Below are positions 193 to 20,158 of a stretch of DNA of 21,450 nucleotides, piece after piece. Numbering within the stretch: the first letter of the stretch is position 1; each line of letters starts with the position of its first letter. Position numbers and translations under genes: made by a program. Origin of the DNA: a virus (Duplodnaviria > Heunggongvirae > Uroviricota > Caudoviricetes); IMG/VR virus record IMGVR_UViG_3300029214_000123. The stretch is one strand, 5' to 3'. The notes beneath the pieces are model-generated. The model ran no database searches, was not told the origin of the DNA, and was given only the letters and a program-made list of their open reading frames with translations.

Positions 193-348
193 TTACTCCT
201 CAGGTTCGTAAGCTGTGAAGACAGCGACCTCCGTCTGGCCGGTTCGGATTCGTACCTCGCAGAGGTCTTTCCTCGTTACCAGTGCCGTCACTATGACGGT
301 TAAACAGATGACGATCAGGGCGATTAACATCGCCTTTTGCTGCTTCAT
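193..348 (-). CDS. hokD: Hok-family type I toxin (HokD/RelF), 51 aa
   Basis: Hand translation of the minus strand gives MKQQKAMLIALIVICLTVIVTALVTRKDLCEVRIRTGQTEVAVFTAYEPEE, which matches my memory of HokD; stop TAA at 193-195; sits just downstream of relE as in the K-12 Qin prophage. Below the 60-aa ORF track threshold. Confidence 0.9.
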   Translation of the reverse strand: MKQQKAMLIALIVICLTVIVTALVTRKDLCEVRIRTGQTEVAVFTAYEPEE

Positions 349-2250: not shown

Positions 2251-3601
2251 TCAATCTTTTTTATCGGGATCAGGCTTCTTTTTAGGTAACTTCGGGGGCT
2301 TAACTTGCTGATGACTTTGCGTTCGGCGCGTAAGCCAGGGATGGTCAGCTTTAGGTTTAACATAGTATTTTGAGCGTAAATCAATACGGGCATTATCCAC
2401 TCGTTCATGGACACTCTTTTCATCATCCAGTGGTATAGGCTCCGGGCCATCAACATACTTTTCCCAGCCCAGCGCTTTCCCGTCATACAGAACGTTAATT
2501 TCACCGTCAAAGTTCTCGCATACAGTAACAACCGAATGCCTAAGTCGATATCCCCGGCCCTCACTGCGTACCTGAAACGCACTGCTTTTGTACTGGAAAG
2601 TGAGATTTTTAGACAGAACGCGCTTCGCCTGTAGGCTGAAGATATAACCCAGTTCCTCTTCAGAATGGTGCACATCAAGATGAGCATTATCAGTAGTACG
2701 AGGCGACGTAGCGAACCGGTTGTTATAGGCTTCAATAAAGGTCGGCAACCATGCATTTGCTGTTTCAATATCACTGATATTCTGAAGCCGCATTTCTTTG
2801 ACCAGCCTGTCCTGTAGTGTCTGATTGGCGCGCTCTACCCGCCCTTTTGCCTGCGGGCTGTTGGCATGGATTGGCTCGATGCCCAGTGTCTTTATCGCAC
2901 GAGTGAACTGGGTCAGCTCACCTTCCCGCTCTGGGTTATTTACCCTGAATATACTGTGTCTATCAGAGTAGAGAGCGAGCGGTACGCCATGATCATTAAG
3001 GTAACCCCGGAGGGTTTCCATGTAAGCCCGGGTTGTTTCAGCAGGCACAAAACGCAACGCCATCAACGCACTGGTGGCATCATCAATGAAAACGATCAGT
3101 GTACATCTGGGGCCTCGATTTTCAAACCAGTCATGAGGTGAGCCATCAATCTGGATCAGTTCACCGTAAGATGGTCGTCGCATGCGGCGTTGATATATAC
3201 GGGCAATTTTACGACGGCGTTCACGCCATACCCCCCTCTTCTATCATCCACTTTCTGAGAGTTTCAACGGATAAAGATAAACCGTGTATCTCGCGCAATT
3301 TTTCGCACGCAAACGTAGGTCCAAAATCAGCGTAACGGCCTTTGAGGAGTAAAATTACTGTTGCTCTGAATTCAGTAGAAAAGGAATTATTAGGACGCTT
3401 TCCACGTCGGTGGGAAACCAGACCAGAAGGCCCTTCATTTCTATACCGTTGCNNNNNNNNNNNNNNNNNNNNNNNNNNNNNNNNNNNNNNNNNNNNNCGT
3501 GCCGCAGCTTGTTCCTGAGTAATATGTCGATTAATTGACTCCTGAATAATCTGAAGTCGGTGGAGTTCCTTATGACTCATCGTAACAGTTTCTTTGGTCA
3601 T
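2251..3601 (-). mobile_element. IS element transposase gene: N-terminal HTH plus DDE (rve-type) catalytic core, about 450 aa; disrupted by a 1-bp frameshift in a poly-G tract and by an N-run (pseudogene or sequencing error)
   Basis: ORFs 3221..3601 (HTH-like N-terminus) and 2251..3183 (D...D...E core: IDGSPHDWF, YSDRHSIF, GRVERANQTL) are offset by +1. They fuse into one reading frame if the C6 run at 3231-3236 (G6 on the coding strand) is shortened by one base. No A6G slippery heptamer. IS boundaries and inverted repeats were not resolved; family is uncertain (single-ORF IS481/ISNCY-like). Confidence 0.7.
3453..3497. other. Run of 45 N inside the transposase gene
   Basis: Literal n characters. 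Confidence 1.
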
Positions 3602-3935
3602 GAAAAATCCCCCAGAGAATTGTCTGGGGACATTTTAGAATGGTTCAAAGGGGACATTACAGCTTGGTGTTAACAATAGCCTGCTTCTCCTTGCCTTTCG
3701 GCACGTAAGAGGCTAACCTACATGTGTCTGGCATGAAATTGGCCTCAGATTAATGTTAAGCGTCTTGCAGGACGCGTAATGTTAACTGGGGCTTTTCTCT
3801 ACCTGCCGTTGGTGTTCGTGCCCGAGGCAGATAGCCTCAAGCACCCGCAGTCATTCTACTTAACTAAGATTTCCCCGCAAACCGTTTTTGTCCAGCACAG
3901 TAAATATCCAACTAAACCAATGGAGTTCGCTGTAT

Positions 3936-4154
3936 TTACCGCCAGTATTCAATGCACATGACCGCCATGAACACCCCTAAAAAAAGGGCATTTATATATC
4001 CAAATATTAATATCAAAACATCAACTTTTTCCATATACCTTGCTGTGAAGATGATGGGCATACATGATGCGAACAACCAGAACGCAACAAACAAAAACTG
4101 CAATGCGTTTTTCATTATTCCTCCTACAATCAATGTGCAATTACATTTAAACAC
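3936..4154 (-). CDS. Hypothetical small membrane protein (72 aa)
   Basis: ORF with two hydrophobic stretches (LQFLFVAFWLFASCMPIIF, LILIFGYINALFLGVFMAVM); AT-rich surroundings, no clear SD. Confidence 0.25.
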   Translation of the reverse strand: MFKCNCTLIVGGIMKNALQFLFVAFWLFASCMPIIFTARYMEKVDVLILIFGYINALFLGVFMAVMCIEYWR

Positions 4155-5269
4155 ACCTCAATTTGGCCGGACATATAAATATCTAAACCAGAAAAAATCA
4201 CTTACATAGCGTTACAAACTCTTTAGTCTAAAGGTTCATCGTAAAACATTCCCCATACTTATCAGTCCGTTCCGCGCCAGGTAGCTCATTGCCTTATCTG
4301 GCAACCTGTAATCAGGTTTCCGCTTTTTCAGTTGGCTGGTCGTTTAACCGACATAGTTAACCCATTAATCTAGTTGCCGGATGTTGGTGGATTTTCGCGT
4401 TTTAGTTGTTCATAAAAGTGCACAGCTTTAACCAATTCTTCTGATGTAACCGGGACTGGTGAGGCAGTGAATAAGGCCTGAATTTGATAGTTCGGCCTGT
4501 CGTTACAATCCTCTTTTTTCGGTACATATTTCCAGTCACCAGACCACTACTTCCCCTGAAAGTCCGTAACGCCTTTTTTTTCACGTAGCGATATCGCCAT
4601 GCCACTGTTTTTGCTTGCCCCGCCGTTTCATGCCCTTCCTGATAATTAACCTCGCTCATTCATCGCCCCACTCATCACAATATGCTTCGACCGGAGTTTT
4701 TCCCGCTTCATAGTCATCACGCTAGGATTCGACATCAGCAGCACTTCCACCGCGTAACTCACCATAGTCCATTAATAGTTCATCCCGCTCTTCAAAACTG
4801 ATGTTATATTTAGCTGAACAAAAATCAGCCACTTTGTTCTTCCTCATCGTCTTTTATTTCGTGGTATGAGTAATTGCAGTAGTTAAAGAAAATTTCTTAT
4901 GCTCCGTCATGAATTTCATCAGGTGTTGCGTCATCGTCCACTTCGAATACATCCTCAAAATCTCCACCAGCTATTCCCGTTTCAATAATAATTTTGAACT
5001 TTCGCATTTCACTACCGCCCTTTCGGGCGGCCTCCTGATGTTCTGAGGGTGCAGAAATCCATCCGGTTAAGGATTAAGTTTTATTTACAGAACTGAATTT
5101 AATTATTCAGATATACGTATCTGTAACCTTACGAATCTACTCACTGGATGCCTCTTTCATAAAAATAATCCAGTGGGTTTTATCGTTTTTTCCCTGTTCG
5201 TTGACAGATAACAGGCTTTCTATCTGTCAGTGCCAGAATCTGGCTTACCGGTATTTGCGTTTCATTCCA

Positions 5270-5626
5270 TTAAAAAATCAGAACGCCGTGCGGCCTCAAC
5301 ACCCGAAAAGCTTCTTTAAATCTCTGTCGCAAATCATCACGCCAGGCATCTTTATTCAGCCGTCCATATTTCTTTCCCATCCAGGCGTTATCACCAACAC
5401 GCTCAAGATGCGGAGGGTCTAATACAACCATCGAAAAAGATGCGTCTGCAAATGATAATGCACGAAAATCTGCGATAATGTCAGGGCTGATAATCAAGCG
5501 TCTCCCATTGCGTAATGTGTATCCTTCTTTTCTGATATCGCTAAATATCGCCCGTTCGTCAGACTTATCGAACCAGAACATGCGGCTGCCACAGCACATA
5601 TCAAGAATGGTTGCCGGTGCACTCAC
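5270..5626 (-). CDS. Prophage DNA methyltransferase-like protein (YfdM-like), possibly truncated
   Basis: 118-aa ORF with SAM-binding-like MCCGS motif and DPPH catalytic-like motif (VVLDPPHLE); short for a complete methyltransferase. Confidence 0.55.
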   Translation of the reverse strand: MSAPATILDMCCGSRMFWFDKSDERAIFSDIRKEGYTLRNGRRLIISPDIIADFRALSFADASFSMVVLDPPHLERVGDNAWMGKKYGRLNKDAWRDDLRQRFKEAFRVLRPHGVLIF

Positions 5627-6045
5627 TGCGCCACGTCCTGAAAATTACCCTGATAGAAAGCCAGTATGCGCTGCATAACTTCGCTCTTCCGGCACTCGCG
5701 ACAGATTATGTTTAGGCGACTGTCGTAGCGACGTATTTCTCCGTCAGGTGATGACCAGATAAGGTCCGGATCAACCACAGCAGGTTTCTTCACCTTTGCC
5801 CTCGAGAGTTTTTTGCGGGCGTTTTGCCAGTCCTTACGCGCCTGTTCAGAGGGGAATAACCCGTAGCCGGAGTTGTATACATCGCCACTGGCTACCAGCT
5901 CTCTGGCAAGAACGCTCATCAGATATCTAGTCGCACCTGTTTTAGCTTCCAGTTGCCGTAACGTCTCACGGCCGCTCTGGCGCACGAGTTCCACCACCTG
6001 CCATTTAATTTTTTCCCGCTCTTCTTGTGTAAAAACTTTTGCCAC
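5623..6045 (-). CDS. Hypothetical prophage protein (140 aa) in the leftward early/replication operon
   Basis: ORF co-oriented with and overlapping (ATGA-type) the downstream methyltransferase-like gene; basic C-terminus. Confidence 0.5.
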   Translation of the reverse strand: MAKVFTQEEREKIKWQVVELVRQSGRETLRQLEAKTGATRYLMSVLARELVASGDVYNSGYGLFPSEQARKDWQNARKKLSRAKVKKPAVVDPDLIWSSPDGEIRRYDSRLNIICRECRKSEVMQRILAFYQGNFQDVAQ

Positions 6046-6085
6046 AAGTCCCCCTTAAAATTACCTCATGACCTGAAATCAACAC

Positions 6086-7051
6086 TTATCCTCTGAAACC
6101 AGGCGGAATTTCTGTATCCGGTTCAGAAATATGATTAACACAACGCTGTACAGGTGAACGTCCCAGGCGGATGACCAGTTCGTCCCATTTTTCGCGGAGC
6201 TTTGACGGGCTCATGATGTTTTTTACCCAGAATGGATCTCGCTGAACCCGACCAAACATTTCGCAAATTTGTCTGTGGCTTCTGCCATCCAGCATCCGCA
6301 TTGTGCGCACGTCATTGGCCCAGGCAGTCCAGTTAGGCTCTTTTGGTCGCATGATCTCGCCATCATCACTGGCTGCCTGTTCGTAGAGACCCACGATCCG
6401 CCCCCAGATCCACTGCGCACACGCCAAATCCTCCCTGCTACCCCACTGGCGTTTTTTCGCACTAAACACAACCGCGTCGGAGTTCCGGGTTAAAAAATCC
6501 TGTTCAGTCGTCTGCGGGTCCGGTTGCGAAGCTTCCGGACGAAAAGTGTTTTTATTCTCTGTAGTAATCTCTGTTGTATTCTCTGTAAGATCATCAGGCC
6601 ATTTTGACCCGATGACATTGGGTCGTTTTGAATCAATGGAGCGTTTCATTTTGACCTCTTCCATCGTGTCATTTTGACCTGATGGAGCGGCGCATTTTGA
6701 ACCGATGGATTCGCTCAATTTGCCACCATCTAAAAGCTCGCTCCCATAGTTGATCGTGTAGAAATTGGTCATATCGCGCTTTGATTTATTGAGCTTTTCA
6801 CAACGCAAAAGCCCCAGCGTTTTCAGACTTGCAAACGCGCGCTTTAACGTTGACTCTGACCAGAATGGGAACTGTTCCAGCCATTGTTCCGTTGTGTTAT
6901 AAATCCAGCGAACACCATCACATTCCATGCCGGAGTTGGTATCTCTCAACCAGTAGTGCAGTTGTTGCAAAACAATGGCTTCGTTTAAGCCAATTTTCAT
7001 TGCCAGCTGCGTGTTTATAACCAGTGGGCGTTCAGCAAAAAGAAGGCTCAT
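6086..7051 (-). CDS. Putative phage replication initiation / replisome-organizer protein (lambda O-like position)
   Basis: Long ORF (track 6086..7105); internal ATG at 7051-7049 (MSLLFAERPL...) is the more likely start. Sits downstream of the cro-like dicC in the leftward operon where lambdoid replication genes are found. Functional call is by position and general resemblance only. Confidence 0.5.
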   Translation of the reverse strand: MSLLFAERPLVINTQLAMKIGLNEAIVLQQLHYWLRDTNSGMECDGVRWIYNTTEQWLEQFPFWSESTLKRAFASLKTLGLLRCEKLNKSKRDMTNFYTINYGSELLDGGKLSESIGSKCAAPSGQNDTMEEVKMKRSIDSKRPNVIGSKWPDDLTENTTEITTENKNTFRPEASQPDPQTTEQDFLTRNSDAVVFSAKKRQWGSREDLACAQWIWGRIVGLYEQAASDDGEIMRPKEPNWTAWANDVRTMRMLDGRSHRQICEMFGRVQRDPFWVKNIMSPSKLREKWDELVIRLGRSPVQRCVNHISEPDTEIPPGFRG

Positions 7052-7553
7052 AATTCCATCCAGCTTTTTGTTGGTATTGCTGTCGATACGCAAGCTTGAA
7101 AGCAATTGCTTTTTCTATAAGTTCGTCAGTTTCACGATCCACTACGGCAGGATCAGCAAAAAGCAGTCCGGACTCCACCACATCGCCATATTCTTTGTTT
7201 AACCCGGCGATCATGCACGTGATGCTTTTTCCGTCAGTAATTTCACGATACAACCTGAAATCACTAATCCGGATAGCCTCCATAATCGCAGGCACTAGCG
7301 CCGTGAACTTTTCACGCTTATCCCTGGTGTCGATAGCCTTCCAGCGTTCGAATATCTTCACTCGATTAACACCAAGCGCTCGCTGATCAACCGCGCCACC
7401 TTCATCTGTGACACGCTGAACATCGATGTTCGGGCGCTCTTTCAAAGCCCAGAATGCTTCAGTGATTAATATCGTCGCCTGCTCCTGTGTCATTCCTGGT
7501 CGACATATCCAGGCATCCAGAGCCTCACGAGCCTGTTCAGGAGTGATTTTCAT
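7032..7553 (-). CDS. Hypothetical prophage protein (173 aa) immediately downstream of dicC
   Basis: ORF overlaps the dicC 3' end by 17 nt and the next gene by about 20 nt (compact operon organisation); function unknown. Confidence 0.45.
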   Translation of the reverse strand: MKITPEQAREALDAWICRPGMTQEQATILITEAFWALKERPNIDVQRVTDEGGAVDQRALGVNRVKIFERWKAIDTRDKREKFTALVPAIMEAIRISDFRLYREITDGKSITCMIAGLNKEYGDVVESGLLFADPAVVDRETDELIEKAIAFKLAYRQQYQQKAGWNYEPSFC

Positions 7554-7764
7554 TGTTCAACCGCCCCGCCCGCTTCGTCTTACGATATTCATCATAAACT
7601 TTGGGATCATACTGAAGCTCCCCGCCAGATGCCTCCTGTAGACGCATCGCGCGACCTTCAGGAACCAGTATCCCCCAAGCAGCAACACTTGCCAGCCTCA
7701 CTCCTGCGGCATTGGCAAGCTTTGTTTTGCTGCCAAAAAAAGTAATTGCGTCAACTTTAAGCAT
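7537..7764 (-). CDS. dicC: DicC, Cro-like repressor of division inhibition
   Basis: ORF ...FGSKTKLANAAGVRLASVAAWGILVPEGRAMRLQEASGGELQYDPKVYDEYRKTKRAGRLNNENHS matches DicC as I recall it; the track ORF begins at a TTG (7767), the first ATG is at 7764; divergent from dicA. Confidence 0.85.
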   Translation of the reverse strand: MLKVDAITFFGSKTKLANAAGVRLASVAAWGILVPEGRAMRLQEASGGELQYDPKVYDEYRKTKRAGRLNNENHS

Positions 7765-7778
7765 CAAATCCCCCTCTT

Positions 7779-7794
7779 GTTAGAGTTTTCTAAC
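7779..7794. promoter_or_regulatory. Operator-like palindrome in the dicC-dicA divergent promoter region
   Basis: gTTAGAgttttTCTAAc inverted repeat between the dicC and dicA start codons. Confidence 0.55.
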
Positions 7795-7844
7795 ATTATT
7801 GTGCGCGGGATACCTAAGTCAAGAAAAATTAGAATTACCTAACT

Positions 7845-8252
7845 ATGGATACAAGAACCCTGGGCCAGCGAGTTCTGGCGCGACGAAAAGAATTACGCTT
7901 AACACAACGAGAAGCCGCGCGCCTCGCTGGAGTTGCTCACGTCACAATTTCACAATGGGAAAGAGACGAAACCCAGCCAGTCGGAAAACGATTGTTTGCT
8001 TTAGCGGATGCTCTGAAGTGCTCACCTACATGGCTAATGTTTGGTGACGAAGACAAGGCACCAGTGCCTGCACAAGAACTTCATGTGGAAACAGAGCTAA
8101 CTCCCAACCACAAAGAATTGATCGAATTATTCGATGCTCTTCCATCTTCCGAGCAGGAAGCCTTGCTGTCTGAAATGCGCGCAAGAGTAGAAAACTTCAA
8201 CAAACTCTTCGAAGAAATGCTTAAAGCGCGTAAAAATAAATCAATAAAATAA
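7845..8252 (+). CDS. dicA: DicA, XRE-family HTH repressor (CI-like)
   Basis: 135-aa ORF with HTH (LTQREAARLAGVAHVTISQWERDETQP) and C-terminus ...EMRARVENFNKLFEEMLKARKN matching DicA as I recall it. Confidence 0.9.
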   Translation: MDTRTLGQRVLARRKELRLTQREAARLAGVAHVTISQWERDETQPVGKRLFALADALKCSPTWLMFGDEDKAPVPAQELHVETELTPNHKELIELFDALPSSEQEALLSEMRARVENFNKLFEEMLKARKNKSIK

Positions 8253-8287
8253 CATTCTTTTCAAGTGATTAGTTGCGCCCACCCTTT

Positions 8288-8307
8288 TTGTTAGATCAAT
8301 CTAACAA
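8288..8307. promoter_or_regulatory. Second DicA-type operator palindrome upstream of ydfA
   Basis: ttGTTAGATcaATCTAACaa: same TTAGA/TCTAA half-sites as the 7779-7794 palindrome, placed at the start of the rightward ydfABC-dicF operon. Confidence 0.55.
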
Positions 8308-8420
8308 AAAACACTTGCCTCTCATGTTAGGTTATTCTAAATTATTTTCCATCAAGACACCGCACGGTGTTCTCAGCAAACAGTTCCGCTACCCCGGCGT
8401 TAAGGGGAAATGAGGTCAGC

Positions 8421-8576
8421 ATGGATACTATCGATCTTGGCAACAACGAATCTCTGGTGTACGGCGTGTTTCCAAACCAGGACGGCACGTTCACCGCAAT
8501 GACGTATACCAAAAGCAAAACGTTTAAAACCGAATCTGGAGCGCGTCGCTGGCTGGAAAGAAATTCAGGTGGGTGA
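8421..8576 (+). CDS. ydfA: YdfA (small prophage protein, 51 aa)
   Basis: MDTIDLGNNESLVYGVFPNQDGTFTAMTYTKSKTFKTESGARRWLERNSGG from the ATG at 8421 (track ORF starts upstream at a GTG); SD-like aggggaaatgagg upstream. Confidence 0.8.
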   Translation: MDTIDLGNNESLVYGVFPNQDGTFTAMTYTKSKTFKTESGARRWLERNSGG

Positions 8577-8577
8577 T

Positions 8578-8706
8578 ATGGATTTCGACACAATCATGGA
8601 AAAGGCTTACGAAGAATACTTCGAAGGCCTTGCCGAAGGCGAAGAAGCTCTCAGCTTCAGCGAATTTAAACAGGCGCTTGCCAGTTCGGCAAAATCTAAC
8701 GGCTGA
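8578..8706 (+). CDS. ydfB: YdfB (42 aa)
   Basis: Hand translation MDFDTIMEKAYEEYFEGLAEGEEALSFSEFKQALASSAKSNG; starts 2 nt after the ydfA stop; below the ORF track threshold. Confidence 0.75.
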   Translation: MDFDTIMEKAYEEYFEGLAEGEEALSFSEFKQALASSAKSNG

Positions 8707-8735
8707 TAAGCGAAACAGCACCGCAAGGAATCAGT

Positions 8736-8954
8736 ATGCAGAAACGAGAACCCGTTATCATCGCGCCAGACTATACCGATGATGAACTTTATGAGTGGAT
8801 GCACCAGAAAATTAATGCAGCGCAGGATCTGAAATGGGCTAATGAAGCCAGGGCTAAGCAGGCTGAAAATCTGTTCTCTCTGGAGCAGGATATCACCAAT
8901 CTGGAAAAAGCAGCGGCATTAAGCATTGCCAGAATGATTACATACCCGCGTTAA
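8736..8954 (+). CDS. ydfC: YdfC (72 aa)
   Basis: ORF MQKREPVIIAPDYTDDELYEWMHQKINAAQ... in the conserved ydfABC order. Confidence 0.8.
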   Translation: MQKREPVIIAPDYTDDELYEWMHQKINAAQDLKWANEARAKQAENLFSLEQDITNLEKAAALSIARMITYPR

Positions 8955-9294
8955 TAGCTAACCAACGAAGCTAAGGTTGGTAATTAAGGAGTTCTCCACG
9001 GGTGAGGTGGAGTGCGTGCGCCGGACACGGGTGAGCATCCGGCACTGACAGTTTACTGAAAGGATATTTCCCTGAAAAGTCAGACCATAACGCGAAAGCG
9101 CACGGCGAGGTAGCTGGTTCATAGATAGCCTGTCGTTAAATTTTCGTCGACCGTGCGCTTCCGGTTGTGGCAACCCGCGAAATGGCGCGGCGGTAAGTAT
9201 GGCGGGGTTATTCCTTCCCCGTTGAGGACACCGGGTTGTCAGGTTGACCATACGCTTAAGTGACAACCCCGCTGCAACGCCCTCTGTTATCAAT

Positions 9295-9352
9295 TTTCTG
9301 GTGACGTTTGGCGGTATCAGTTTTACTCCGTGACTGCTCTGCCGCCCTTTTT
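9295..9352 (+). ncRNA. dicF: DicF small RNA (antisense inhibitor of ftsZ translation) with intrinsic terminator
   Basis: tttctggtgacgtttggcggtatcagttttactccgtgactgctctgccgccc followed by ttttt matches DicF as I recall it; GC hairpin plus T-run at the 3' end. Confidence 0.85.
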
Positions 9353-9376
9353 AAAGTGAATTTTGTGATGCGGTGA

Positions 9377-9649
9377 ATGCGGCTAAGCGCACGCGGAACA
9401 GTTAAAACCAAAAACAGTGTTATGGGTGGATTCTCTGTATCCGAAGAGCAGTTAATTGCGCTGAAAGGAATAAAAAAAGGTACGTTAAAAAAGGCCCGGG
9501 AAAAATCGTTTATGGAAGGAAGGGAATATAAGCATGTCGCTCATGACGGTATGCCATGGGATAACAGTCCATGCTTTTACAACCTGGAAGAAATTGATCG
9601 CTGGATTGAGCGCCAGGCATCAGCAAGACCAAGACGTCATCTTACTTGA
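9377..9649 (+). CDS. Putative excisionase (lambda Xis-like); start codon uncertain
   Basis: ORF immediately upstream of int; segment EGREYKHVAHDGMPWD resembles the lambda Xis DGREYLFHESAVKVD region. No clear SD at any candidate start (9377, 9422, 9512). K-12 has dicB at this position, and no DicB-like protein is present here. Confidence 0.45.
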   Translation: MRLSARGTVKTKNSVMGGFSVSEEQLIALKGIKKGTLKKAREKSFMEGREYKHVAHDGMPWDNSPCFYNLEEIDRWIERQASARPRRHLT

Positions 9650-9683
9650 CTAAAAGCCACACTAACTAATGAGAGAAGTTGAA

Positions 9684-10964
9684 ATGAAATATCCGACAGG
9701 CGTGGAAAACCATGGAGGGAAATTACGTATCTGGTTTGTTTATAAAGGCGTAAGAGTCAGGGAAAACCTGGGGGTTCCTGACACAGCAAAAAACAGGCGC
9801 GTTGCAGGTGAGCTACGCGCCTCTGTTTGTTACGCAATAAAAACTGGTGTTTTCGACTATGCAAAACAGTTTCCCTCCTCACGCAATCTGGAAAAATTTG
9901 GTGAGACTCGACAAGATTTAACCATAAAAGAACTGGCTGAAAAATTTCTGGCACTGAAAGAAACTGAAGTCGCAAAAACATCACTCAACACATACCGTGC
10001 CGTCATCAAAAATATCCTGAGCATAATCGGTGAAAAAAATCTTGCCTCATCGATTAATAAAGAAAAATTACTGGAGGTTCGTAAAGAGCTACTGACTGGA
10101 TACCAGATCCCCAAAAGTAACTATATTGTTACACAACCAGGGAGATCGGCTGTAACTGTAAATAATTACATGACAAATCTTAACGCCGTGTTCCAGTTTG
10201 GTGTTGATAACGGTTACCTGGCAGATAACCCGTTTAAGGGGATCTCGCCATTAAAGGAATCAAGAACCATTCCGGATCCTCTTTCGCGGGAGGAATTCAT
10301 CCGTCTTATCGATGCGTGCAGAAATCAGCAAGCCAAAAATTTATGGTGTGTTTCTGTTTATACTGGCGTTCGCCCTGGTGAGCTGTGTGCACTTGGATGG
10401 GAGGACATAGATCTGAAAAATGGAACAATGATGATCAGGAGAAATTTAGCAAAAGACCGTTTCACGGTACCAAAAACACAGGCGGGAACCAATCGGGTCA
10501 TTCATCTTATTAAGCCAGCAATCGACGCTCTCCGGAGTCAGATGACATTAACGAGACTGAGCAAAGAGCATATCATTGATGTTCACCTCAGAGAGTATGG
10601 CAGAACAGAAAAACATAAATGCACCTTTGTTTTTCAACCTGAAGTGTCAGCGAGAGTAAAAAATTATGGTGACCATTTTACCGTTGACTCAATAAGGCAG
10701 ATGTGGGACGCAGCGATAAAACGTGCCGGACTCCGCCATCGAAAATCATATCAGTCGAGACATACTTATGCCTGCTGGTCGCTGACAGCTGGTGCTAATC
10801 CGGCATTTATAGCAAACCAGATGGGCCATGCAGATGCGCAAATGGTATTTCAGGTATACGGAAAATGGATGTCTGAAAACAATAATGCACAGGTAGCTTT
10901 GTTAAATACACAGTTAAGCGAGTTTGCCCCAACCATGCCCCATAACGAAGCAATGAAAAATTAA
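9684..10964 (+). CDS. Phage integrase (tyrosine recombinase), apparently intact
   Basis: 426-aa reading from the ATG at 9684 (track ORF 9669) with a C-terminal catalytic region carrying conserved R...HxxR...Y residues (...RHTYACW..., ...VYGKWM); last prophage gene before the chromosomal rspB. Confidence 0.85.
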   Translation: MKYPTGVENHGGKLRIWFVYKGVRVRENLGVPDTAKNRRVAGELRASVCYAIKTGVFDYAKQFPSSRNLEKFGETRQDLTIKELAEKFLALKETEVAKTSLNTYRAVIKNILSIIGEKNLASSINKEKLLEVRKELLTGYQIPKSNYIVTQPGRSAVTVNNYMTNLNAVFQFGVDNGYLADNPFKGISPLKESRTIPDPLSREEFIRLIDACRNQQAKNLWCVSVYTGVRPGELCALGWEDIDLKNGTMMIRRNLAKDRFTVPKTQAGTNRVIHLIKPAIDALRSQMTLTRLSKEHIIDVHLREYGRTEKHKCTFVFQPEVSARVKNYGDHFTVDSIRQMWDAAIKRAGLRHRKSYQSRHTYACWSLTAGANPAFIANQMGHADAQMVFQVYGKWMSENNNAQVALLNTQLSEFAPTMPHNEAMKN

Positions 10965-11151
10965 TTTAATATTTATCAAATAGTTGACACGTATGACTCT
11001 TGAAATCCATAAATTCAAGCGCAGTGCCCAGCCATCCCGATACTGCTGCTTTCACCAAATCCTTAGTGCTTCTTTCGTGTTTTTCTATTGTCATAATGGT
11101 TATCTCTAAAAAAGAGGTAAGATGCGTACTACTTACTCGCCGTTATTGGTA

Positions 11152-12171
11152 TTATTCAGAAAAAGTGAGTAAGACTTTGCAGCAATGTTTTTGATCCTGT
11201 TCAAATAAACTAATGGCATCAGCAACATGCTGGAAATCAAACGTATGGGTAATTAATTTTTCTGGTTTAATTAACCCTTTACTTAACCAGTCGATAACAA
11301 CCGGAAATTTATTTGCATTTAAGCGTGAAGAGAAAATAGAGAGTTCTTTTCCGGTAATTCCTTGCTGAATCACTTCAGACGGTTCACTGGAGAAGCCCAT
11401 CAATACAATACGTGCCGCTGGAGAAGCCAGCGTTACGGCCTCTTTCAGGATAGAAGGATGACAAGCCGCATCGATAATTAATGTCGGCTTGATGCCTTTT
11501 TCAGCGAAAATCTCGCCAAGCGGTGTCTGGCTGTTATTAATCGCCCAGTCTGCCCCGCTCTCTTTCGCTTTTTCCAGTCGTTCATCAATGCGATCGGCAA
11601 CAATCACATTTTTAACGTTATAGACGCCTTTTAATACCTGAACGATCGTCAGGCCGATTGGACCGGCACCATAAACCAGAACGGTATCATTTTCAGTCGG
11701 TTGACCATGACCGGTAACGTTAGCCGCAATGGTAAAAGGTTCGATCATCACCGCATATTGATCGGCCACTGCTTCAGGAATTTTCCACGCATTTTTTGCC
11801 GGAACCACGGCATATTCACTGAAACCACCGTCAGCGTGCACACCTAATACAGCAAGTGTCGTACAAACGTTCGGCTTACCTATAGAGCACGGATAGCAAT
11901 GCCCACAGCTGACCACCGGATCGACAGCAACGCGTTCACCGACTCTGGCGCTTTCCACACCTTCACCCACCGCATCAATGACGCCAAAGAATTCATGACC
12001 AATGACGCGCGGATATTTCGCAAAAGGATTATGCCCACGGTAAATATGGCTATCTGAACCACAAATTCCGGCAAGTTTCACTTTTACTCGTACTTCACCC
12101 GCTGACGGGGTGGGTATTTCACGTTCGATAATCGACAGTTGATTCGGTTTTTCAATTAAAATGCTTTTCAT
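11152..12171 (-). CDS. rspB: Starvation-sensing protein RspB (Zn-dependent alcohol dehydrogenase family)
   Basis: ORF matches RspB as I recall it from MKSILIEKPNQ... (ATG at 12171); GHE/Cys Zn-ligand motifs and GxGxxG NAD fold. Confidence 0.95.
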   Translation of the reverse strand: MKSILIEKPNQLSIIEREIPTPSAGEVRVKVKLAGICGSDSHIYRGHNPFAKYPRVIGHEFFGVIDAVGEGVESARVGERVAVDPVVSCGHCYPCSIGKPNVCTTLAVLGVHADGGFSEYAVVPAKNAWKIPEAVADQYAVMIEPFTIAANVTGHGQPTENDTVLVYGAGPIGLTIVQVLKGVYNVKNVIVADRIDERLEKAKESGADWAINNSQTPLGEIFAEKGIKPTLIIDAACHPSILKEAVTLASPAARIVLMGFSSEPSEVIQQGITGKELSIFSSRLNANKFPVVIDWLSKGLIKPEKLITHTFDFQHVADAISLFEQDQKHCCKVLLTFSE

Positions 12172-12182
12172 TACCTTACTCC

Positions 12183-13397
12183 TTACCAGTTCCACAGCGT
12201 GCCATCTTCCAGACGTGCGACTGGCAGATAAGCAGGTTCATAGGGATATTTCGCCGCCAGCTTTTCATCGAATTCGATGCCAAGACCCGGTTTGTCTCCC
12301 GGATGCATATAGCCGTTATCGAAAGTCCAGTTGTGCGGGAAGACTTCGAGCATTTGTTCGGAATAACCCATGTACTCCTGGACACCGAAATTGGGGACCC
12401 ACAGATCAAAGTGCAGCGCCGCAGCCATGCAGACTGGTGACAAATCGGAAGGACCGTGTGAGCCAGTACGTACCTGATACAGCGAAGCAAAATCGGCAAT
12501 CCGGCGCATACCGGTAATTCCGCCTGCATGGGTCAGCGTGGTGCGGATATAATCGATGAGTTGCTCTTCAATCAGTTGTTTGCAGTCCCAGATGCTGTTG
12601 AAGACTTCACCCACTGCGATGGGTGTGACGGTATGTTGGCGAATGAGACGGAAGCATTCCTGGTTTTCCGCAGGCGTCGGGTCTTCCATCCAGAACATGC
12701 GATAATCTTCAATGCTTTTACCAAAGCGCGCCGCTTCAATAGGCGTTAAGCGATGGTGCATGTCATGCAGCAAATGTTCATTAAAACCAAACTTGTTACG
12801 TACCGCGTCAAACAATTTCGGCATGAAATCGAGGTATTTCTCCGTCGACCACAGCTGCTCTTCCGGCCACTGTCCTTTGGTTGCGGGTTCATAAGCCAGA
12901 CCTTTACCTTTCGACATGCCGTAGGTGGTTTTCATACCAGGGATTCCGCACTGCACGCGGATGGCTTTGAATCCCAGCTCCTGATGACGGGCATAATCAT
13001 CCAGAGCTTCATCAATACTGTGACCGGTGGTATGGCAATAAACCATCACCCCTTCACGAGACGCGCCGCCGAGTAACTGGTAAAGCGGCATGTTGGCAGC
13101 TTTGGCTTTAATATCCCACAGCGCCATATCAACCGCTGAAATGGCCGACATCGTAACCGGACCGCGACGCCAGTAAGCACCTTTATAGAAAAACTGCCAG
13201 ATATCTTCGATACGGTGCGCATCGCGACCAATAAGCTGCGGACAAAGGTGATCCTGCAAATAAGAGGCCACGGAAAGCTCACGTCCATTGAGGGTGGCAT
13301 CCCCAAGGCCCGTAATACCGTCCTCAGTGGTGATTTTTAATGTGACGAAATTACGCCCCGGACAGGTAACAAAAACTTCAGCCTTTACGATCTTCAT
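12183..13397 (-). CDS. rspA: Starvation-sensing protein RspA (mannonate dehydratase / enolase superfamily)
   Basis: ORF matches RspA as I recall it from [17 protein letters not shown]... (ATG at 13397; the track ORF extends further upstream to 13430). Confidence 0.95.
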
Positions 13398-13602
13398 GTT
13401 CGATTCCTTGCATCGCTTGTCGTGATGCATGAAATCTACGCAACTGAGCTACTACCATACAAGTATGAAGATCGAAAAAAGCCGGAGTGATCACAAAAAA
13501 AGGCGTATATTTGCGCTGTGAATGGTTGACAAAAGATGAAATAGAATACCTTTTGTCAGCTGACACTTCCTCTTATCTTATTGATAAAATGGATTTATGT
13601 TC

Positions 13603-13929
13603 CTACGTGCGCCCCCAGCCCGCAACAATGATCAACATGCCGCAAAGCGCAATCAACGCACCCGTCCAGTCATAAAGAGTCAGTTTCACGCCATCCACAA
13701 CGCGCAGCCACATCAACGCCGTGCAGACATAAACGCCACCATAAGCCGCGTAAACACGCCCACTCGCCGCTGGATGCAACGTTAACAACCAGACAAACAG
13801 CGCCAGTGAAATCCCCGCCGGAAGCAACAGCCAGATACTGGCGTTTCGTTTTAACCACAACCAGGGCAGAAAGCATCCAATAATTTCACACAGCGCAGTA
13901 GCAAAAAATAGTAACGTTGTTTTAATCAT
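13603..13929 (-). CDS. ynfA: YnfA, UPF0060 family inner-membrane protein
   Basis: Multi-[31 protein letters not shown]... from the ATG at 13929. Confidence 0.9.
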
Positions 13930-14063
13930 CTTTGTCACTTATTGACATCATGTATAGTTATAGGGCGACATAATATCATCAATATAAACACCCTCCTGGT
14001 ACGTTTTGCGTTCGCAGTGGATGGTGTAGAATCTCCTTTAATCATTCATACAGGGAATGAATT

Positions 14064-14405
14064 ATGAAAATCACTCTCAGCAAACGAATCGGCCTGCTCG
14101 CTTTTCTGCTGCCTTGCGCACTGGCACTGAGCACAACTGTTCATGCCGAAACTAACAAACTGGTGATTGAGTCTGGCGACAGTGCACAAAGCCGCCAGCA
14201 CGCCGCTATGGAAAAAGAGCAATGGAATGACACGCGCAATCTGCGTCAGAAAGTGAATAAACGCACTGAAAAAGAGTGGGATAAAGCCGACGCCGCTTTT
14301 GATAACCGCGATAAATGTGAGCAAAGCGCCAACATCAATGCCTACTGGGAGCCAAATACTTTGCGCTGCCTGGACCGTCGAACTGGCCGCGTTATTACCC
14401 CCTAA
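14064..14405 (+). CDS. ynfB: YnfB, UPF0482 family secreted protein
   Basis: 113-aa ORF with an N-terminal signal peptide ([28 protein letters not shown]). Confidence 0.9.
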
Positions 14406-14439
14406 CCTGTTATTGATTTAAGGAATGTAAGGACACGTT

Positions 14440-15000
14440 ATGCCAAGCGCCCACAGTGTTAAGCTACGCCCGCTGGAGCGTGAAGATTTACGCTATGTAC
14501 ATCAACTCGACAATAACGCCAGTGTGATGCGTTACTGGTTTGAGGAACCCTACGAAGCCTTTGTTGAACTCTCTGATCTGTATGATAAGCATATTCACGA
14601 TCAGAGCGAACGGCGCTTTGTGGTGGAATGTGACGGCGAAAAAGCCGGTCTGGTGGAGCTGGTGGAAATTAACCATGTACATCGCCGGGCAGAATTTCAG
14701 ATAATTATCTCCCCGGAGTATCAGGGGAAAGGTCTGGCAACCCGTGCCGCCAAATTAGCAATGGACTATGGCTTTACCGTTCTCAATCTCTATAAGCTGT
14801 ATCTGATCGTTGATAAAGAGAATGAAAAAGCGATTCACATTTACCGCAAGCTTGGCTTTTCGGTTGAAGGTGAATTGATGCACGAGTTCTTTATTAATGG
14901 TCAATATCGTAATGCCATTCGCATGTGTATATTCCAGCATCAGTATCTGGCAGAGCACAAAACACCGGGTCAGACTCTCCTGAAGCCGACCGCACAATAG
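14440..15000 (+). CDS. speG: Spermidine N1-acetyltransferase SpeG (GNAT family)
   Basis: 186-aa [44 protein letters not shown]... matches SpeG as I recall it. Confidence 0.95.
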
Positions 15001-15002
15001 CA

Positions 15003-15713
15003 TTAATAATAATCGATCGTATTTTTGATGGTGTAAACCCGTTCGACGGCGGGTTTTACTCCTTCATCAACAATGATTAGCTGACAGTCCACCGGATTAG
15101 CGTGACTGTCATATTCACAGCTCTGTTTTACATTACCAACCCGTTGATTATTCAGTAAAGTAACCGCTGTGTAATCTAATTTTTTGATCGGATCCGTTGA
15201 TGGCGTGGCGCTGACAGATAATGTTTTGTCGTTACTTTTCGTGGTTTTACCCAGCGGATAACCCTGATCATCATAGCGATATTCCATCTGCATTTGTTTG
15301 CTGCTGGCTTTAATCACGAAGCCATTATCATCGGTTTCCCAACTCACCCCGGCAGAAGGTAATTCTGCTAGCTGGCATTTTCCCTGTAAACGTACTCTCT
15401 TCTCCAGCGTCTCGGCATCACGGTAATAATTGGCGTCCAGTACCAGAGCGACCACGGTATTATTTTCCAGATCCAGTAATTCGAGTGAATCAAAACAGCC
15501 TTCTTCCGACAAAGTCCCAGAAACACGTTTCGTCACTTCACCTTGCTCATCCATTAATGTCTGAGTGAAATCTTTTACCGGACCACGCAGCGGATCAAAA
15601 TCGAATTCATTAGAGAAACTGGCCATCTCAGGGGTAAATGAAAGTGTTACCTCTGTGCGGTCACATCCTGTGAGGAATATCGCGAGTAAGCATGGTAGTA
15701 ATTTGTATTTCAC
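15003..15713 (-). CDS. ynfC: YnfC, UPF0257 family lipoprotein; GTG start
   Basis: Sequence from (V/M)KYKLLPCLLAIFLTGC (lipobox LTGC) matches YnfC as I recall it; that position is a GTG at 15713-15711, and the track ORF extends upstream to an ATG at 15749. Confidence 0.85.
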   Translation of the reverse strand: MKYKLLPCLLAIFLTGCDRTEVTLSFTPEMASFSNEFDFDPLRGPVKDFTQTLMDEQGEVTKRVSGTLSEEGCFDSLELLDLENNTVVALVLDANYYRDAETLEKRVRLQGKCQLAELPSAGVSWETDDNGFVIKASSKQMQMEYRYDDQGYPLGKTTKSNDKTLSVSATPSTDPIKKLDYTAVTLLNNQRVGNVKQSCEYDSHANPVDCQLIIVDEGVKPAVERVYTIKNTIDYY

Positions 15714-15820
15714 AACAGTCACCAGAGAGTAGAGATGATTCTCAATCATAGTAGCAAATACAGTACTTTACACGTTAAATGCTATGCTTAAAGAAGTTAT
15801 CTTCGCGTAAGGAGCTTATG

Positions 15821-16126
15821 ATGAAACTCTCAACCTGCTGTGCCGCGCTTCTGCTCGCCCTCGCCTCACCCGCGGTACTCGCCGCGCCGGGATCCTGTGA
15901 GCGCATACAGAGCGATATATCACAGCGCATTATCAATAATGGCGTACCCGAAAGCAGCTTCACGTTAAGTATTGTACCCAATGACCAGGTTGATCAGCCT
16001 GATTCCCAGGTCGTCGGGCATTGTGCTAATGATACGCATAAAATTCTCTACACCCGCACCACCAGCGGTAACGTCTCTGCTCCCGCGCAGTCTACCCAGG
16101 ATGGCGCGCCTGCCGAACCGCAGTAA
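15821..16126 (+). CDS. ynfD: YnfD, secreted DUF1161-like protein
   Basis: MKLSTCCAALLLALASPAVLA signal peptide; the ATG at 15821 is 6 nt after an aaggag SD (track ORF starts upstream at 15779). Confidence 0.85.
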   Translation: MKLSTCCAALLLALASPAVLAAPGSCERIQSDISQRIINNGVPESSFTLSIVPNDQVDQPDSQVVGHCANDTHKILYTRTTSGNVSAPAQSTQDGAPAEPQ

Positions 16127-16142
16127 TACATTATCGACTGAA

Positions 16143-16165
16143 CGCCGGATACGACACATCCGGCG
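16143..16165. repeat. REP-like GC-rich hairpin downstream of ynfD
   Basis: cgccggat-acgacac-atccggcg stem-loop resembling enterobacterial REP/PU elements; no T-run follows. Confidence 0.4.
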
Positions 16166-16324
16166 ATTTGAACATACAACATAATCCCACCTTATTACTC
16201 ATACCCTTCTATTGATATGGATTAATAATTCTTAACCCAAAATGGGTAGACTCCCTCTATTGTTAGCGCGCTAAATATTCAATATATAAACATTTATATA
16301 ACGATAAAGAACAGGGAGTGAGTT

Positions 16325-17734: not shown

Positions 17735-17790
17735 TTCAAGGACTTGAAGCGGACCCTTAGTAGGCCTGAGGTCCTGCATTGAGTCAAGGA

Positions 17791-17824
17791 CTTTGTGTCA
17801 GGCTTTGTGTCAGCCTTGTGTCAT
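17791..17824. repeat. Three tandem copies of an ~11-bp repeat (ctttgtgtcag variants) in the foreign-segment terminal region
   Basis: ctttgtgtcagg / ctttgtgtcagc / cttgtgtcat in direct tandem; followed by a tagacgg ... tagacgg direct repeat (17825-17844). Confidence 0.6.
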
Positions 17825-17976
17825 TAGACGGGATGTCTAGACGGCTGGTCAGGACCCCCGGTGGCCTCGGTCTGGACTTGAGGCGGGGCTATGGGGGGAA
17901 GTCTGCTGGCTTAATGTATTAGATGGTCATTCACATTTTTCTGTCAGAAACCATCGGTCCCACTGTGAGTCCAAAC

Positions 17977-18132
17977 CTAAGGACCTAGAAGTCCACCCAC
18001 AGCCTTAGACAGAGTGTCGAACACATCCACACCGAGTCGACCAGAGAGGACCATATAGAGACCCACAGAGAGGAACACGAGTTTATAGACCAGAGTCAGG
18101 AGGGACCTTAGGTCTGCGGAAGTCATAGACAT
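17977..18132 (-). CDS. Small (51 aa) membrane protein, holin-like or phage small membrane protein; missed by the ORF track (<60 aa)
   Basis: Hand translation MSMTSADLRSLLTLVYKLVFLSVGLYMVLSGRLGVDVFDTLSKAVGGLLGP; strong SD GAAGGAGG 5 nt upstream of the ATG at 18132; one predicted TM helix; same strand as the neighbouring phage-like genes. Confidence 0.55.
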   Translation of the reverse strand: MSMTSADLRSLLTLVYKLVFLSVGLYMVLSGRLGVDVFDTLSKAVGGLLGP

Positions 18133-18276
18133 TGGGTCCTCCTTCGCCTGTATACTACCATACCAGTAATAAGGCCCAGACCATTGGTCCAGACCATAGT
18201 TAGTTAATCACAGTGATAGCCCACCACCTGAAGTCCTGCTGATATTCAGTCCAGACTTACCTCTTACCCATTGGTC

Positions 18277-19266: not shown

Positions 19267-19298
19267 TATAATTAATCTCCTTGAGTCAAATACTTGAA

Positions 19299-19321
19299 GT
19301 CCCTAACAGGCAGTCAGGGAC
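19299..19321 (-). promoter_or_regulatory. Stable RNA hairpin in the leader of the capsid-like gene (candidate RNase III / mRNA-stability element)
   Basis: On the minus strand GUCCCUGAC-UGCCU-GUUAGGGAC: 9-bp stem with one G-U pair; no U-tract after it, so it is unlikely to be an intrinsic terminator. Confidence 0.4.
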
Positions 19322-20157: not shown

Positions 20158-20158
20158 C

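What the first reader, a model, noticed from the sequence alone, without database searches (positions are those of the whole stretch)
5270..10964. Qin-like prophage arm with intact integrase, Xis-like gene and replication module; no dicB
Relative to what I recall of K-12 Qin, this prophage keeps a full-length tyrosine integrase with an Xis-like ORF directly upstream, plus a leftward cro(dicC)-to-replication-to-methyltransferase operon. The division inhibitor dicB that normally follows dicF is absent. The element may therefore still be excision-competent, with dicF as the only division-inhibitory output.
Basis: partly seen in the sequence, partly recalled or inferred. Interest (0 to 1): 0.5.

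Follow-up and report, generated by a model that had tools for sequence, protein, structure and literature searches.

The report
Qin-type prophage arm with deletion scar
This is the regulatory, replication and integration end of an ordinary Qin-type (phage mEp460-like) E. coli prophage; dicB is missing because a 3.1-kb deletion removed dicB, ydfD, an exonuclease gene and the start of the excisionase gene, so excision is probably impaired, not preserved.

Summary
They form the right arm of a Qin-type lambdoid prophage inserted in ydfJ next to rspB.

- **Integrase:** the 426-aa protein is full length. It is identical to that of a 48-kb dicB-positive prophage and 424/426 identical to that of phage mEp460_ev081.
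- **DicF:** 53/53 identical to K-12.
- **Immunity and replication genes:** intact.
- **Missing dicB:** this is a scar, not an architecture. The closest genomes (99.9% identical) carry 3,131 bp more between dicF and xis. The deletion lies between two 7-bp GTATCCG repeats. It removed dicB, ydfD, an 823-aa exonuclease gene and the first 13 codons of xis.
- **"Xis-like ORF":** an in-frame chimera that lacks the family's conserved N-terminal I/V..PGxW segment.
- **"Methyltransferase":** a pseudogene with an internal stop and a frameshift.
- **att sites:** only one lies in the window (core GAAATCCATAA, 11002-11012).

Excision competence is therefore doubtful. The junction is real: about 77 E. coli contigs carry it, on two haplotype backgrounds, but none of 5,426 complete genomes does. 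This is ordinary prophage decay and of low interest.

The parts
5135..5626 (-). SAM-dependent DNA methyltransferase pseudogene. The open part is 5270-5626 (118 aa); the remainder runs to about 5146 in another frame.
   Evidence: tblastn with a 160-aa Klebsiella phage homologue shows an in-frame stop (LIF*WNETQ) and a frameshift near the C-terminus. The ORF covers positions 52-165 of the 229-position PHROG 954 profile. RefSeq marks the H1 orthologue 'frameshifted; internal stop'.
5623..6045 (-). DUF977 / LygF / Ren-like protein (140 aa)
   Evidence: Pfam PF06163, E 5e-29. PHROG 142. 129/133 identical to mEp460 LygF.
6086..7051 (-). O-like replication initiation protein (321 aa)
   Evidence: PHROG 391 'replication initiation O-like', E 8.6e-92. 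314/321 identical to the mEp460 protein. Same length as annotated in H1 and PhiR42_1.
7032..7553 (-). YdaT-family / CII-like protein (173 aa). K-12 ydfX is its truncated remnant.
   Evidence: Pfam PF06254. PHROG 163 'CII-like', E 2.6e-40. 91/93 identical to K-12 YdfX over the part K-12 keeps.
7537..7764 (-). Cro/DicC-like regulator (75 aa)
   Evidence: Pfam P22_Cro, E 5e-12. 65/76 identical to K-12 DicC.
7778..7844 (.). Two operator-like palindromes between the divergent cro-like and repressor genes: TGTTAGAGTTTTCTAACA at 7778-7795 and a degenerate copy at 7827-7844.
   Evidence: Repeat families D1, I1, I2 and I4. Pattern scan: perfect copies of TGTTAG-N6-CTAACA occur only at 7778 and 8289 in the 21-kb window; K-12 has variants at the equivalent places.
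7845..8252 (+). DicA-like repressor (135 aa), an immunity type different from K-12 and mEp460
   Evidence: Pfam HTH_3, E 1.5e-14. 75/132 identical to K-12 DicA and 68/130 to the mEp460 repressor.
8289..8342 (.). Two operator-like palindromes upstream of ydfA, at the position of dicBp: TGTTAGATCAATCTAACA at 8289-8306 and TGTTAGGTTATTCTAAAT at 8325-8342.
   Evidence: Position by analogy with K-12 dicBp (10.1101/2023.04.14.536235).
8421..8954 (+). ydfA (8421-8576), ydfB (8578-8706), ydfC (8736-8954)
   Evidence: Coordinates transferred from the RefSeq annotation of H1. Pfam DUF1391 for ydfA.
9295..9347 (+). DicF small RNA gene
   Evidence: Rfam RF00039, 76.7 bits (gathering score 48), full model. 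Exact 53-nt match to K-12 dicF.
9437..9443 (.). Deletion junction: the single remaining copy of the 7-bp microhomology GTATCCG. 3,131 bp are missing here (dicB, ydfD, the 823-aa exonuclease gene and xis codons 1-13).
   Evidence: Window against L001: 3498-9443 matches 4231-10174 and 9437-16964 matches 13306-20833. Sequences read directly. L001 annotation.
9422..9649 (+). Chimeric xis' ORF: 75 aa from the ATG at 9422, or 90 aa from the ATG at 9377. Residues from VSEEQ onward are native Xis; the residues before that come from the dicF-dicB spacer.
   Evidence: The Pfam DUF1233 match starts at profile position 10 of 70. Alignment A1: G11 is invariant and W13 nearly invariant in the family; W13 is lost here. 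The motif is shared with Rac XisR and PDB 2kvv.
9684..10964 (+). Full-length tyrosine integrase (426 aa), IntQ type
   Evidence: Pfam Arm-DNA-bind_2 plus Phage_integrase. Identical to the H1 Int and 424/426 identical to the mEp460_ev081 Int. Active-site positions R230, K264, Y356, R359, H382, Y392, from the alignment to Tn1549 Int.
11002..11012 (.). att core GAAATCCATAA, the int-proximal prophage/chromosome junction. The ydfJ 5' fragment follows it.
   Evidence: The same 11 bp sit at both ends of K-12 Qin and of the H1 prophage, and in mEp460 attP. Similarity to the phage ends at 11017. Integration in the ydfJ 5' end is described in PMC6379469.

Best explanation
Window 5135-11012 is the early and integration arm of a Qin-type lambdoid prophage inserted in the 5' end of ydfJ. 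Its closest free-phage relative is mEp460.

How it most likely works:
- A DicA-like repressor is inferred to bind four TGTTAGA-N4-TCTAACA operators (by analogy with K-12; binding not tested).
- Through them it would hold two transcription units off. One runs leftward: cro/dicC-like, ydaT/cII-like, O-like initiator, DUF977, dead methyltransferase. The other runs rightward: ydfA, ydfB, ydfC, dicF.
- A 3,131-bp deletion between two GTATCCG heptamers joined the spacer just downstream of dicF to codon 14 of xis. It removed dicB, ydfD and the RecE-like exonuclease gene. This is shown directly by the sequence comparison.
- After derepression the rightward unit can still yield DicF, which blocks ftsZ translation in K-12. 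It can no longer yield DicB or YdfD.
- Int is intact and should be catalytically competent.
- Xis is now an in-frame chimera without its native start region and without the conserved N-terminal I/V..PGxW segment. Directed excision is therefore most likely strongly reduced, and the prophage is on its way to being locked in (inferred).
For: - **Deletion mapped to the base:** comparison with a 99.9%-identical complete genome.
- **Real, not an assembly error:** the exact chimeric ORF occurs on about 44 + 33 contigs of independent E. coli assemblies. All ten fetched loci carry the same junction.
- **Canonical order:** dicF, dicB, ydfD, exonuclease, xis (83 aa), int (426 aa) in mEp460, PhiR42_1, H1 and several of the prophage loci fetched.
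- **Int:** identical to the dicB-positive relative and 99.5% identical to the mEp460 protein.
- **Xis N-terminal motif:** conserved across the family, including Rac XisR and PDB 2kvv, and lost here. Rac XisR is an experimentally shown excisionase (PMC4632033).
- **att logic:** attP, both K-12 ends and the H1 far end share the 11-bp core.
- **DicF:** identical to K-12. [quoted passage not shown] DicF represses ftsZ (PMC5069750).
- **Independent decay of the same arm elsewhere:** K-12 has IS2E, no xis and a 5'-truncated intQ. BL21 has an exonuclease-to-xis deletion and a frameshifted int.
Against: - The chimera is in frame, has ATG codons, and keeps everything from the predicted first strand onward. 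AlphaFold predicts the same strand/helix pattern for the native and the chimeric protein. Residual Xis activity therefore cannot be excluded.
- Deleting xisR in Rac lowered excision only about 9- to 14-fold (PMC4632033). Low-level excision driven by Int may persist.
- No expression data exist.
- Operator assignment is by sequence pattern only.
- The far att site and the rest of the prophage are outside the window.
Confidence: 0.8

Rival explanations
1. One reading: the arm keeps a working int-xis pair, so the prophage can still excise, and DicF is its only division inhibitor.
For: - Int is full length and essentially the same as that of an isolated phage.
- The att core is present.
- xis' is in frame and keeps the predicted winged-helix core.
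- Rac lacking xisR still excises at roughly 10% of the normal rate (PMC4632033).
Against: - xis lost 13 codons, its start codon, the sequence upstream of it, and the conserved PGxW segment.
- No Shine-Dalgarno-like sequence is evident before either candidate ATG (read).
- The same junction persists in prophage remnants with further large deletions (L005, L009, L010, L011), as expected for a trapped element.
- The second att site is not in the window.
- A YdaT-family gene, hokD and relE are also present, and other dicB copies in the genome cannot be excluded.
Confidence: 0.2
2. The identical junction arose more than once, as a deletion hotspot at the GTATCCG heptamers, rather than once followed by spread.
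For: - The junction sits on two haplotype families on both sides. The window matches L001/K-12-type sequence. L005, L007 and L012 match BL21/mEp460-type sequence: 94% identity to the window on the left side and 14-18 differences in 1,574 nt on the right.
- Patchy extra similarity flanks the heptamers (ATGGGT... GTATCCG... GTTAATTG).
Against: The window carries the two B-type bases (C at 9371, A at 9385) just left of the junction, inside an otherwise A-type flank. That fits one origin followed by transfer on a short recombination tract of about 70-280 nt. Seven bases of homology is weak for exact recurrence.
Confidence: 0.25
3. The missing 3.1 kb is an assembly artefact of the source genome.
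For: None of 5,426 complete RefSeq E. coli genomes has the junction, and the species-representative genome scan found none.
Against: The same junction is present in about 77 contigs from independent NCBI, ENA, JGI and Logan assemblies, including contigs over 400 kb. The join is clean, in frame and at a microhomology.
Confidence: 0.02

Closest known systems
Cryptic prophage Qin of E. coli K-12 (dicA/dicC-dicBF locus, intQ)
   Same: - Same insertion site (ydfJ 5' end, next to rspB) and the same 11-bp att core.
- Same order: hokD-relBE-flxA ... dicC, dicA, ydfABC, dicF.
- DicF is identical.
- int is 381/385 identical over the part K-12 retains.
   Different: - K-12 lacks window 2436-7273 (most of ydaT, the O-like gene, DUF977 and the dead methyltransferase), lacks xis, and has an IS2E-truncated intQ.
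- K-12 keeps dicB, ydfD and part of ydfE.
- The DicA repressor here is only 57% identical, and the inner bases of the operators differ.
- K-12 Qin does not excise (PMC3105296).
Phage mEp460_ev081 (LR597641), with PhiR42_1, HannyBb and Tritos
   Same: - Same Int (99.1-99.5% identical across the four phages) and the same attP core. For mEp460_ev081, the same replication proteins: O-like 314/321, YdaT 170/173, DUF977 129/133.
- Same early-left order ending in xis-int.
   Different: - The phages carry ydfD, the 823-aa exonuclease gene and a complete 83-aa xis; mEp460_ev081 also has an annotated dicB.
- The window has the 3,131-bp deletion.
- The immunity region (repressor and cro N-terminus) is a different type.
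48-kb Qin-type prophage of E. coli 07-4299 (NZ_CP027462; H1)
   Same: 99.9% identical over the arm. Int is identical and the methyltransferase pseudogene and ISEsa1 remnant are the same.
   Different: - It has dicB, ydfD, the exonuclease gene and native xis.
- It has a full head and tail gene set and both att cores.
- Its chromosomal flank differs from the window by 0.8% although the phage part is identical.
Rac prophage IntR/XisR module
   Same: An excisionase of the same Pfam family (DUF1233) next to an Arm-type tyrosine integrase, and the same N-terminal VIF..W motif. XisR is shown to bind att and to stimulate excision (PMC4632033).
   Different: Only 24% identity to Qin-type Xis. The att site is different (ttcA). 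The window's protein lacks the motif.

Membership tests
Qin-type (mEp460-like) prophage at ydfJ | Integration in the ydfJ 5' end with core GAAATCCATAA, next to rspB | tested here: met
   Core at 11002-11012, identical to the K-12 Qin end repeats and to mEp460 attP. rspB and rspA follow.
Qin-type (mEp460-like) prophage at ydfJ | Immunity and early-left synteny: dicC-like, dicA-like, ydfA, ydfB, ydfC, dicF | tested here: met
Qin-type (mEp460-like) prophage at ydfJ | dicB-ydfD-exonuclease downstream of dicF | tested here: not met
   Removed by the 3,131-bp deletion. No tblastn hit in the window. This is a derived loss, so it does not argue against common descent.
Tyrosine recombinase (phage integrase) | Catalytic domain with R-K-(H)-R-H-Y and an N-terminal arm-binding domain, full length compared with a functional homologue | tested here: met
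   Pfam PF00589 plus PF12167. R230, K264, R359, H382 and Y392 are present. The first His position holds Tyr356. Only residues 75 and 301 differ from the mEp460 integrase, so Tyr356 is shared with the phage.
DUF1233 / XisR-type excisionase | Pfam PF06806 match above the gathering score | tested here: met
   93.6 bits against a cutoff of 22, but covering only profile positions 10-69 of 70.
DUF1233 / XisR-type excisionase | Conserved N-terminal hydrophobic segment with PGxW or the equivalent Trp | tested here: not met
   Replaced by MGGFS. W13 is at least 90% conserved in A1 and present in Rac XisR and 2kvv.
DUF1233 / XisR-type excisionase | Binds the att arm and stimulates Int-mediated excision | not testable with these tools
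   Needs EMSA and an excision assay.
DicF sRNA | Rfam RF00039 covariance model above the gathering score, with the ftsZ-pairing sequence intact | tested here: met
   76.7 bits against 48. 53/53 identical to K-12.
Excision-competent prophage | Two att sites in direct orientation, plus active Int, plus active and expressed Xis | tested here: inconclusive
   One att core and an intact Int are seen. The far att is outside the window and Xis is a truncated chimera.

The most novel reading that the evidence does not exclude
The dicB-to-xis deletion allele arose once. It has since been moved between divergent Qin-type prophages by short-tract homologous recombination. It is retained because a single event removes two host-toxic genes (dicB, ydfD) and cripples excision, while DicF stays under DicA control. 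That would make it a selected domestication step rather than neutral decay.
Probability: 0.15. Interest if true: 0.3.

Novelty: new member of a known kind. Interest (0 to 1): 0.12.

Why it matters
It matters little beyond annotation hygiene.
- An ORF that passes a Pfam excisionase test and sits next to an intact integrase can still be a deletion chimera. Excision competence should not be inferred from gene presence alone.
- It adds one more independent way in which the int-proximal arm of Qin-type prophages decays. K-12 has IS2 and a truncated int. BL21 has an exonuclease-to-xis deletion and a frameshifted int. Here the deletion runs from dicB into xis.
- Strains with this allele are natural DicF-positive, DicB-negative variants. 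They could serve to separate the two division inhibitors physiologically.

Tried and rejected
- **Junction scan of one genome per species:** no match, so the source genome and the far prophage end were not recovered.
- **hokD look-up with 10-kb flanks:** meant to reach further left in a junction-bearing contig. All ten places returned have dicB annotated, so none carries the deletion. They were useful only to show the canonical order.
- **AlphaFold of native against chimeric Xis:** both give the same secondary-structure pattern at mean pLDDT about 74. With an alignment made of native sequences this cannot discriminate function.
- **Foldseek of the native model:** it recovers only 2kvv (and weakly P2 Cox, 4lhf), confirming the excisionase fold but nothing about the N-terminus.
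- **Consensus promoter and terminator scan of 7500-11200:** no more sites than in shuffled sequence, and it missed the DicF terminator. Not used.
- **Codon differences in int among junction alleles:** 3-6 nonsynonymous against 7-8 synonymous. Too few to show selection.
- **Assembly artefact:** rejected, see rivals.
- **PADLOC and Pfam on the three ORFs of the ynfE island:** no hits.


Full report
**What is in the window**

The window is E. coli chromosome. From 11152 rightward lie rspB, rspA, ynfA, ynfB, speG, ynfC, ynfD and ynfE. To the left of about 11012 lies a lambdoid prophage carrying hokD, relBE, ydfV and flxA, an IS remnant, and then the region of the finding.

Megablast of 5270-10964 against 5,426 complete E. 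coli genomes finds 717 genomes with a place covering at least 80% of the query. The best are 99.9% identical. Every one of the top hits is split into two pieces that span about 8.8 kb in the record for 5.7 kb of query.

**Gene inventory (observation check)**

On the minus strand:
- Cro/DicC-like protein, 7537-7764 (P22_Cro).
- YdaT-family / CII-like protein, 7032-7553.
- O-like replication initiator, 321 aa, 6086-7051 (PHROG 391, E 8.6e-92).
- DUF977 / Ren-like protein, 5623-6045.
- A 118-aa methyltransferase ORF, 5270-5626.

On the plus strand:
- DicA-like HTH repressor, 7845-8252.
- ydfA, ydfB and ydfC, 8421-8954.
- DicF, 9295-9347 (Rfam 76.7 bits; 53/53 identical to K-12).
- A DUF1233 excisionase-family ORF, 9377 or 9422 to 9649.
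- A 426-aa integrase, 9684-10964 (Arm-DNA-bind_2 plus Phage_integrase).

tblastn with DicB (K-12, H1 and mEp460 versions), YdfD and the 823-aa exonuclease finds nothing in the window.

Compared with K-12 Qin:
- Window 2436-7273 is absent from K-12.
- K-12 ydfX is the truncated N-terminal part of the YdaT-family gene.
- K-12 has no xis.
- K-12 intQ starts after IS2E and lacks the first 41 codons.

**Why dicB is absent**

Alignment with the closest complete genome (NZ_CP027462, locus L001) gives window 3498-9443 = L001 4231-10174 and window 9437-16964 = L001 13306-20833. The two blocks overlap by 7 bases. L001 has GTATCCG at 10168-10174 and again at 13306-13312, and the window has one copy at 9437-9443.

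The 3,131 bp missing from the window contain:
- dicB (L001 10253-10441).
- ydfD (10438-10629).
- An 823-aa exonuclease gene (10723-13194).
- The first 39 nt of the excisionase gene (13267-13518).

The order dicF, dicB, ydfD, exonuclease, xis (83 aa), int (426 aa) is the rule in mEp460_ev081 and H1. It recurs in several of the unrelated prophage loci fetched, and PhiR42_1 shows the same row without an annotated dicB. The window therefore carries a deletion. The relatives do not carry an insertion.

**The 'Xis-like ORF' is a chimera**

Native Xis reads MSEVIMIVSPGKW|VSEEQLIALKG... The window reads (MRLSARGTVKTKNSV)MGGFS|VSEEQLIALKG... The join is in frame. The first 13 native residues are replaced by residues translated from the dicF-dicB spacer.

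- The Pfam match begins at profile position 10 of 70.
- In an alignment of 18 family members plus the window protein, G11 is invariant and W13 is at least 90% conserved. The window protein is one of the few without W13.
- The hydrophobic-stretch-plus-Trp motif is also present in Rac XisR (MAQVIFNEEWMVE...) and in the solved structure 2kvv (IIFNEEWMVE...), at only about 24-26% overall identity.
- XisR has been shown to bind att and to stimulate Rac excision. Its deletion lowers excision 9- to 14-fold (PMC4632033).
- AlphaFold places the first strand at residues 13-15 and models residues 1-10 with low confidence. The chimera is predicted with the same strand/helix pattern. The core fold is probably kept and only the N-terminal element is lost.
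- By eye, no Shine-Dalgarno-like sequence precedes either candidate ATG (sequence).

My estimate is about a 70% chance that Xis function is lost or strongly reduced. This is an inference, not a measurement.

**Integrase and att**

- Int is identical to that of the dicB-positive H1 prophage.
- It is 424/426 identical to the integrase of phage mEp460_ev081 and 99.1% identical to those of HannyBb, PhiR42_1 and Tritos.
- Alignment to Tn1549 Int identifies R230, K264, R359, H382 and Y392. The first His position is Tyr356. Only residues 75 and 301 differ from the mEp460 Int, so Tyr356 is shared with the phage.
- The 11-bp core GAAATCCATAA lies at 11002-11012. The same core is at both annotated ends of K-12 Qin, at the far end of the H1 prophage and in mEp460 attP.
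- The window equals the phage to the left of the core and equals ydfJ 5' sequence to the right of it.
- Qin integration into the ydfJ 5' end is described in PMC6379469.
- Only this one att junction is in the window.

**Methyltransferase**

Compared with a 160-aa Klebsiella phage homologue, the gene has an in-frame stop after residue 118 and a frameshift near the end. RefSeq annotates the orthologue as a pseudogene. The leftward operon therefore ends in a dead gene.

**Immunity switch**

- Perfect copies of TGTTAG-N6-CTAACA occur only twice in the 21-kb window. One is at 7778, between the divergent cro-like and repressor genes. The other is at 8289, upstream of ydfA.
- Each has a degenerate partner, at 7827 and 8325.
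- K-12 has the same arrangement with different inner bases. Its DicA is only 57% identical. This fits a different immunity specificity.
[quoted passage not shown] DicF represses ftsZ (PMC5069750).
- The 96 nt downstream of dicF are retained and almost identical to the relatives: two differences from L001, at 9371 and 9385. DicF production should therefore be unaffected (inference).

**Is the junction real, and how common is it?**

- None of the 5,426 complete genomes has it, and neither does the one-genome-per-species collection.
- The exact chimeric ORF is on record on 44 contigs (90-aa call) plus 33 contigs (75-aa call), all E. coli.
- All ten loci fetched carry the identical junction.
- Some are window-like (L003, L004, L006, L008). 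L010 has a further deletion of window 4568-7274. L005, L009 and L011 have lost everything between ydfA and the Q-region. L007 and L012 have other immunity or cargo genes.

**One origin or several?**

- On both sides of the junction the alleles fall into two haplotype families. The window groups with L001, K-12 and L024. L005, L007 and L012 group with BL21, mEp460, L020 and L021.
- The window nevertheless carries the two B-type bases at 9371 and 9385, directly left of the junction.
- This suggests the junction was moved into an A-type prophage on a short recombination tract of about 70-280 nt, rather than arising twice. It rests on two sites only.
- The phage part of the window right of the junction is identical to H1 (0 differences in 1,574 nt), while the adjacent chromosome differs at 19 of 2,413 sites.
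- BL21 shows a separate deletion from the exonuclease gene into the xis 5' end, plus a frameshifted int.
- This arm decays repeatedly and in different ways.

**Verdict**

- The anatomy is ordinary and is explained by known biology: a Qin-type, mEp460-like prophage in an intermediate state of decay.
It loses its main support, because xis is damaged by the very event that removed dicB.
- K-12 Qin itself does not excise (PMC3105296). Whether this variant does is an experimental question.
- 'DicF as the only division inhibitor' can be said only for the dicBF locus of this arm.

Noticed in passing
window 17735-21450: ynfE is interrupted: the ORF 16325-17782 is 485 aa instead of 808. Similarity to all related loci stops at 17735. 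Beyond that lie three minus-strand ORFs (329, 163 and 237 aa) with no Pfam or PADLOC hit. Only 10 of 5,426 complete genomes cover at least 80% of this stretch, the best at 95% identity. In NZ_AP022095 the same block continues with an HNH endonuclease and a 528-aa site-specific integrase before the rest of ynfE. It is therefore a rare small integrative island inserted in ynfE.
   Followed up: partly
window 3675-3846 (-) and 193-348 (-): A full-length Rfam sok hit (99.8 bits) lies 3.3 kb from hokD. In mEp460 the matching sequence sits directly beside the hok gene (window 3676-3866 = L014 2174-2364). The relBE-ydfV-flxA-ydfW-IS block therefore appears to have been inserted into an ancestral hok/sok locus, separating the toxin gene from its antisense and leader region. 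K-12 lacks the sok part. PMC6379469 mentions relBE integration at hokD.
   Followed up: partly
window 2251-3601 (-): Remnant of an IS1202-like ISEsa1 transposase (a 310-aa ORF with a weak rve_3 hit, plus a 126-aa HTH ORF), annotated as partial in the closest genome. An equivalent mobile-element protein plus transposase pair lies at the same position in the deposited phage PhiR42_1.
   Followed up: no
loci L012, L017, L020, L021 (between the DUF977/methyltransferase genes and hokD); window equivalent about 2436-5270: In related Qin-type prophages this slot holds varied cargo: AIPR, a Cap4-nuclease/AAA_22/SEC-C protein, DUF7380/EMARD_N, and a RelA_SpoT-domain protein. It looks like a defence or cargo hotspot. 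The window has only IS debris and pseudogenes there.
   Followed up: no
window 9444-13430 compared with L001: The prophage part is identical to E. coli 07-4299 (0 differences in 1,574 nt), but the adjoining rspB-rspA chromosome differs at 19 of 2,413 sites. This suggests the prophage, or this end of it, reached the two lineages recently and independently of the flank.
   Followed up: partly
L028 (BL21(DE3) 1595891-1597905): The BL21 Qin-type prophage has its own deletion from the exonuclease gene into the xis 5' end (a 64-aa xisR call) and a frameshifted integrase. This is an independent inactivation of the same module.
   Followed up: no
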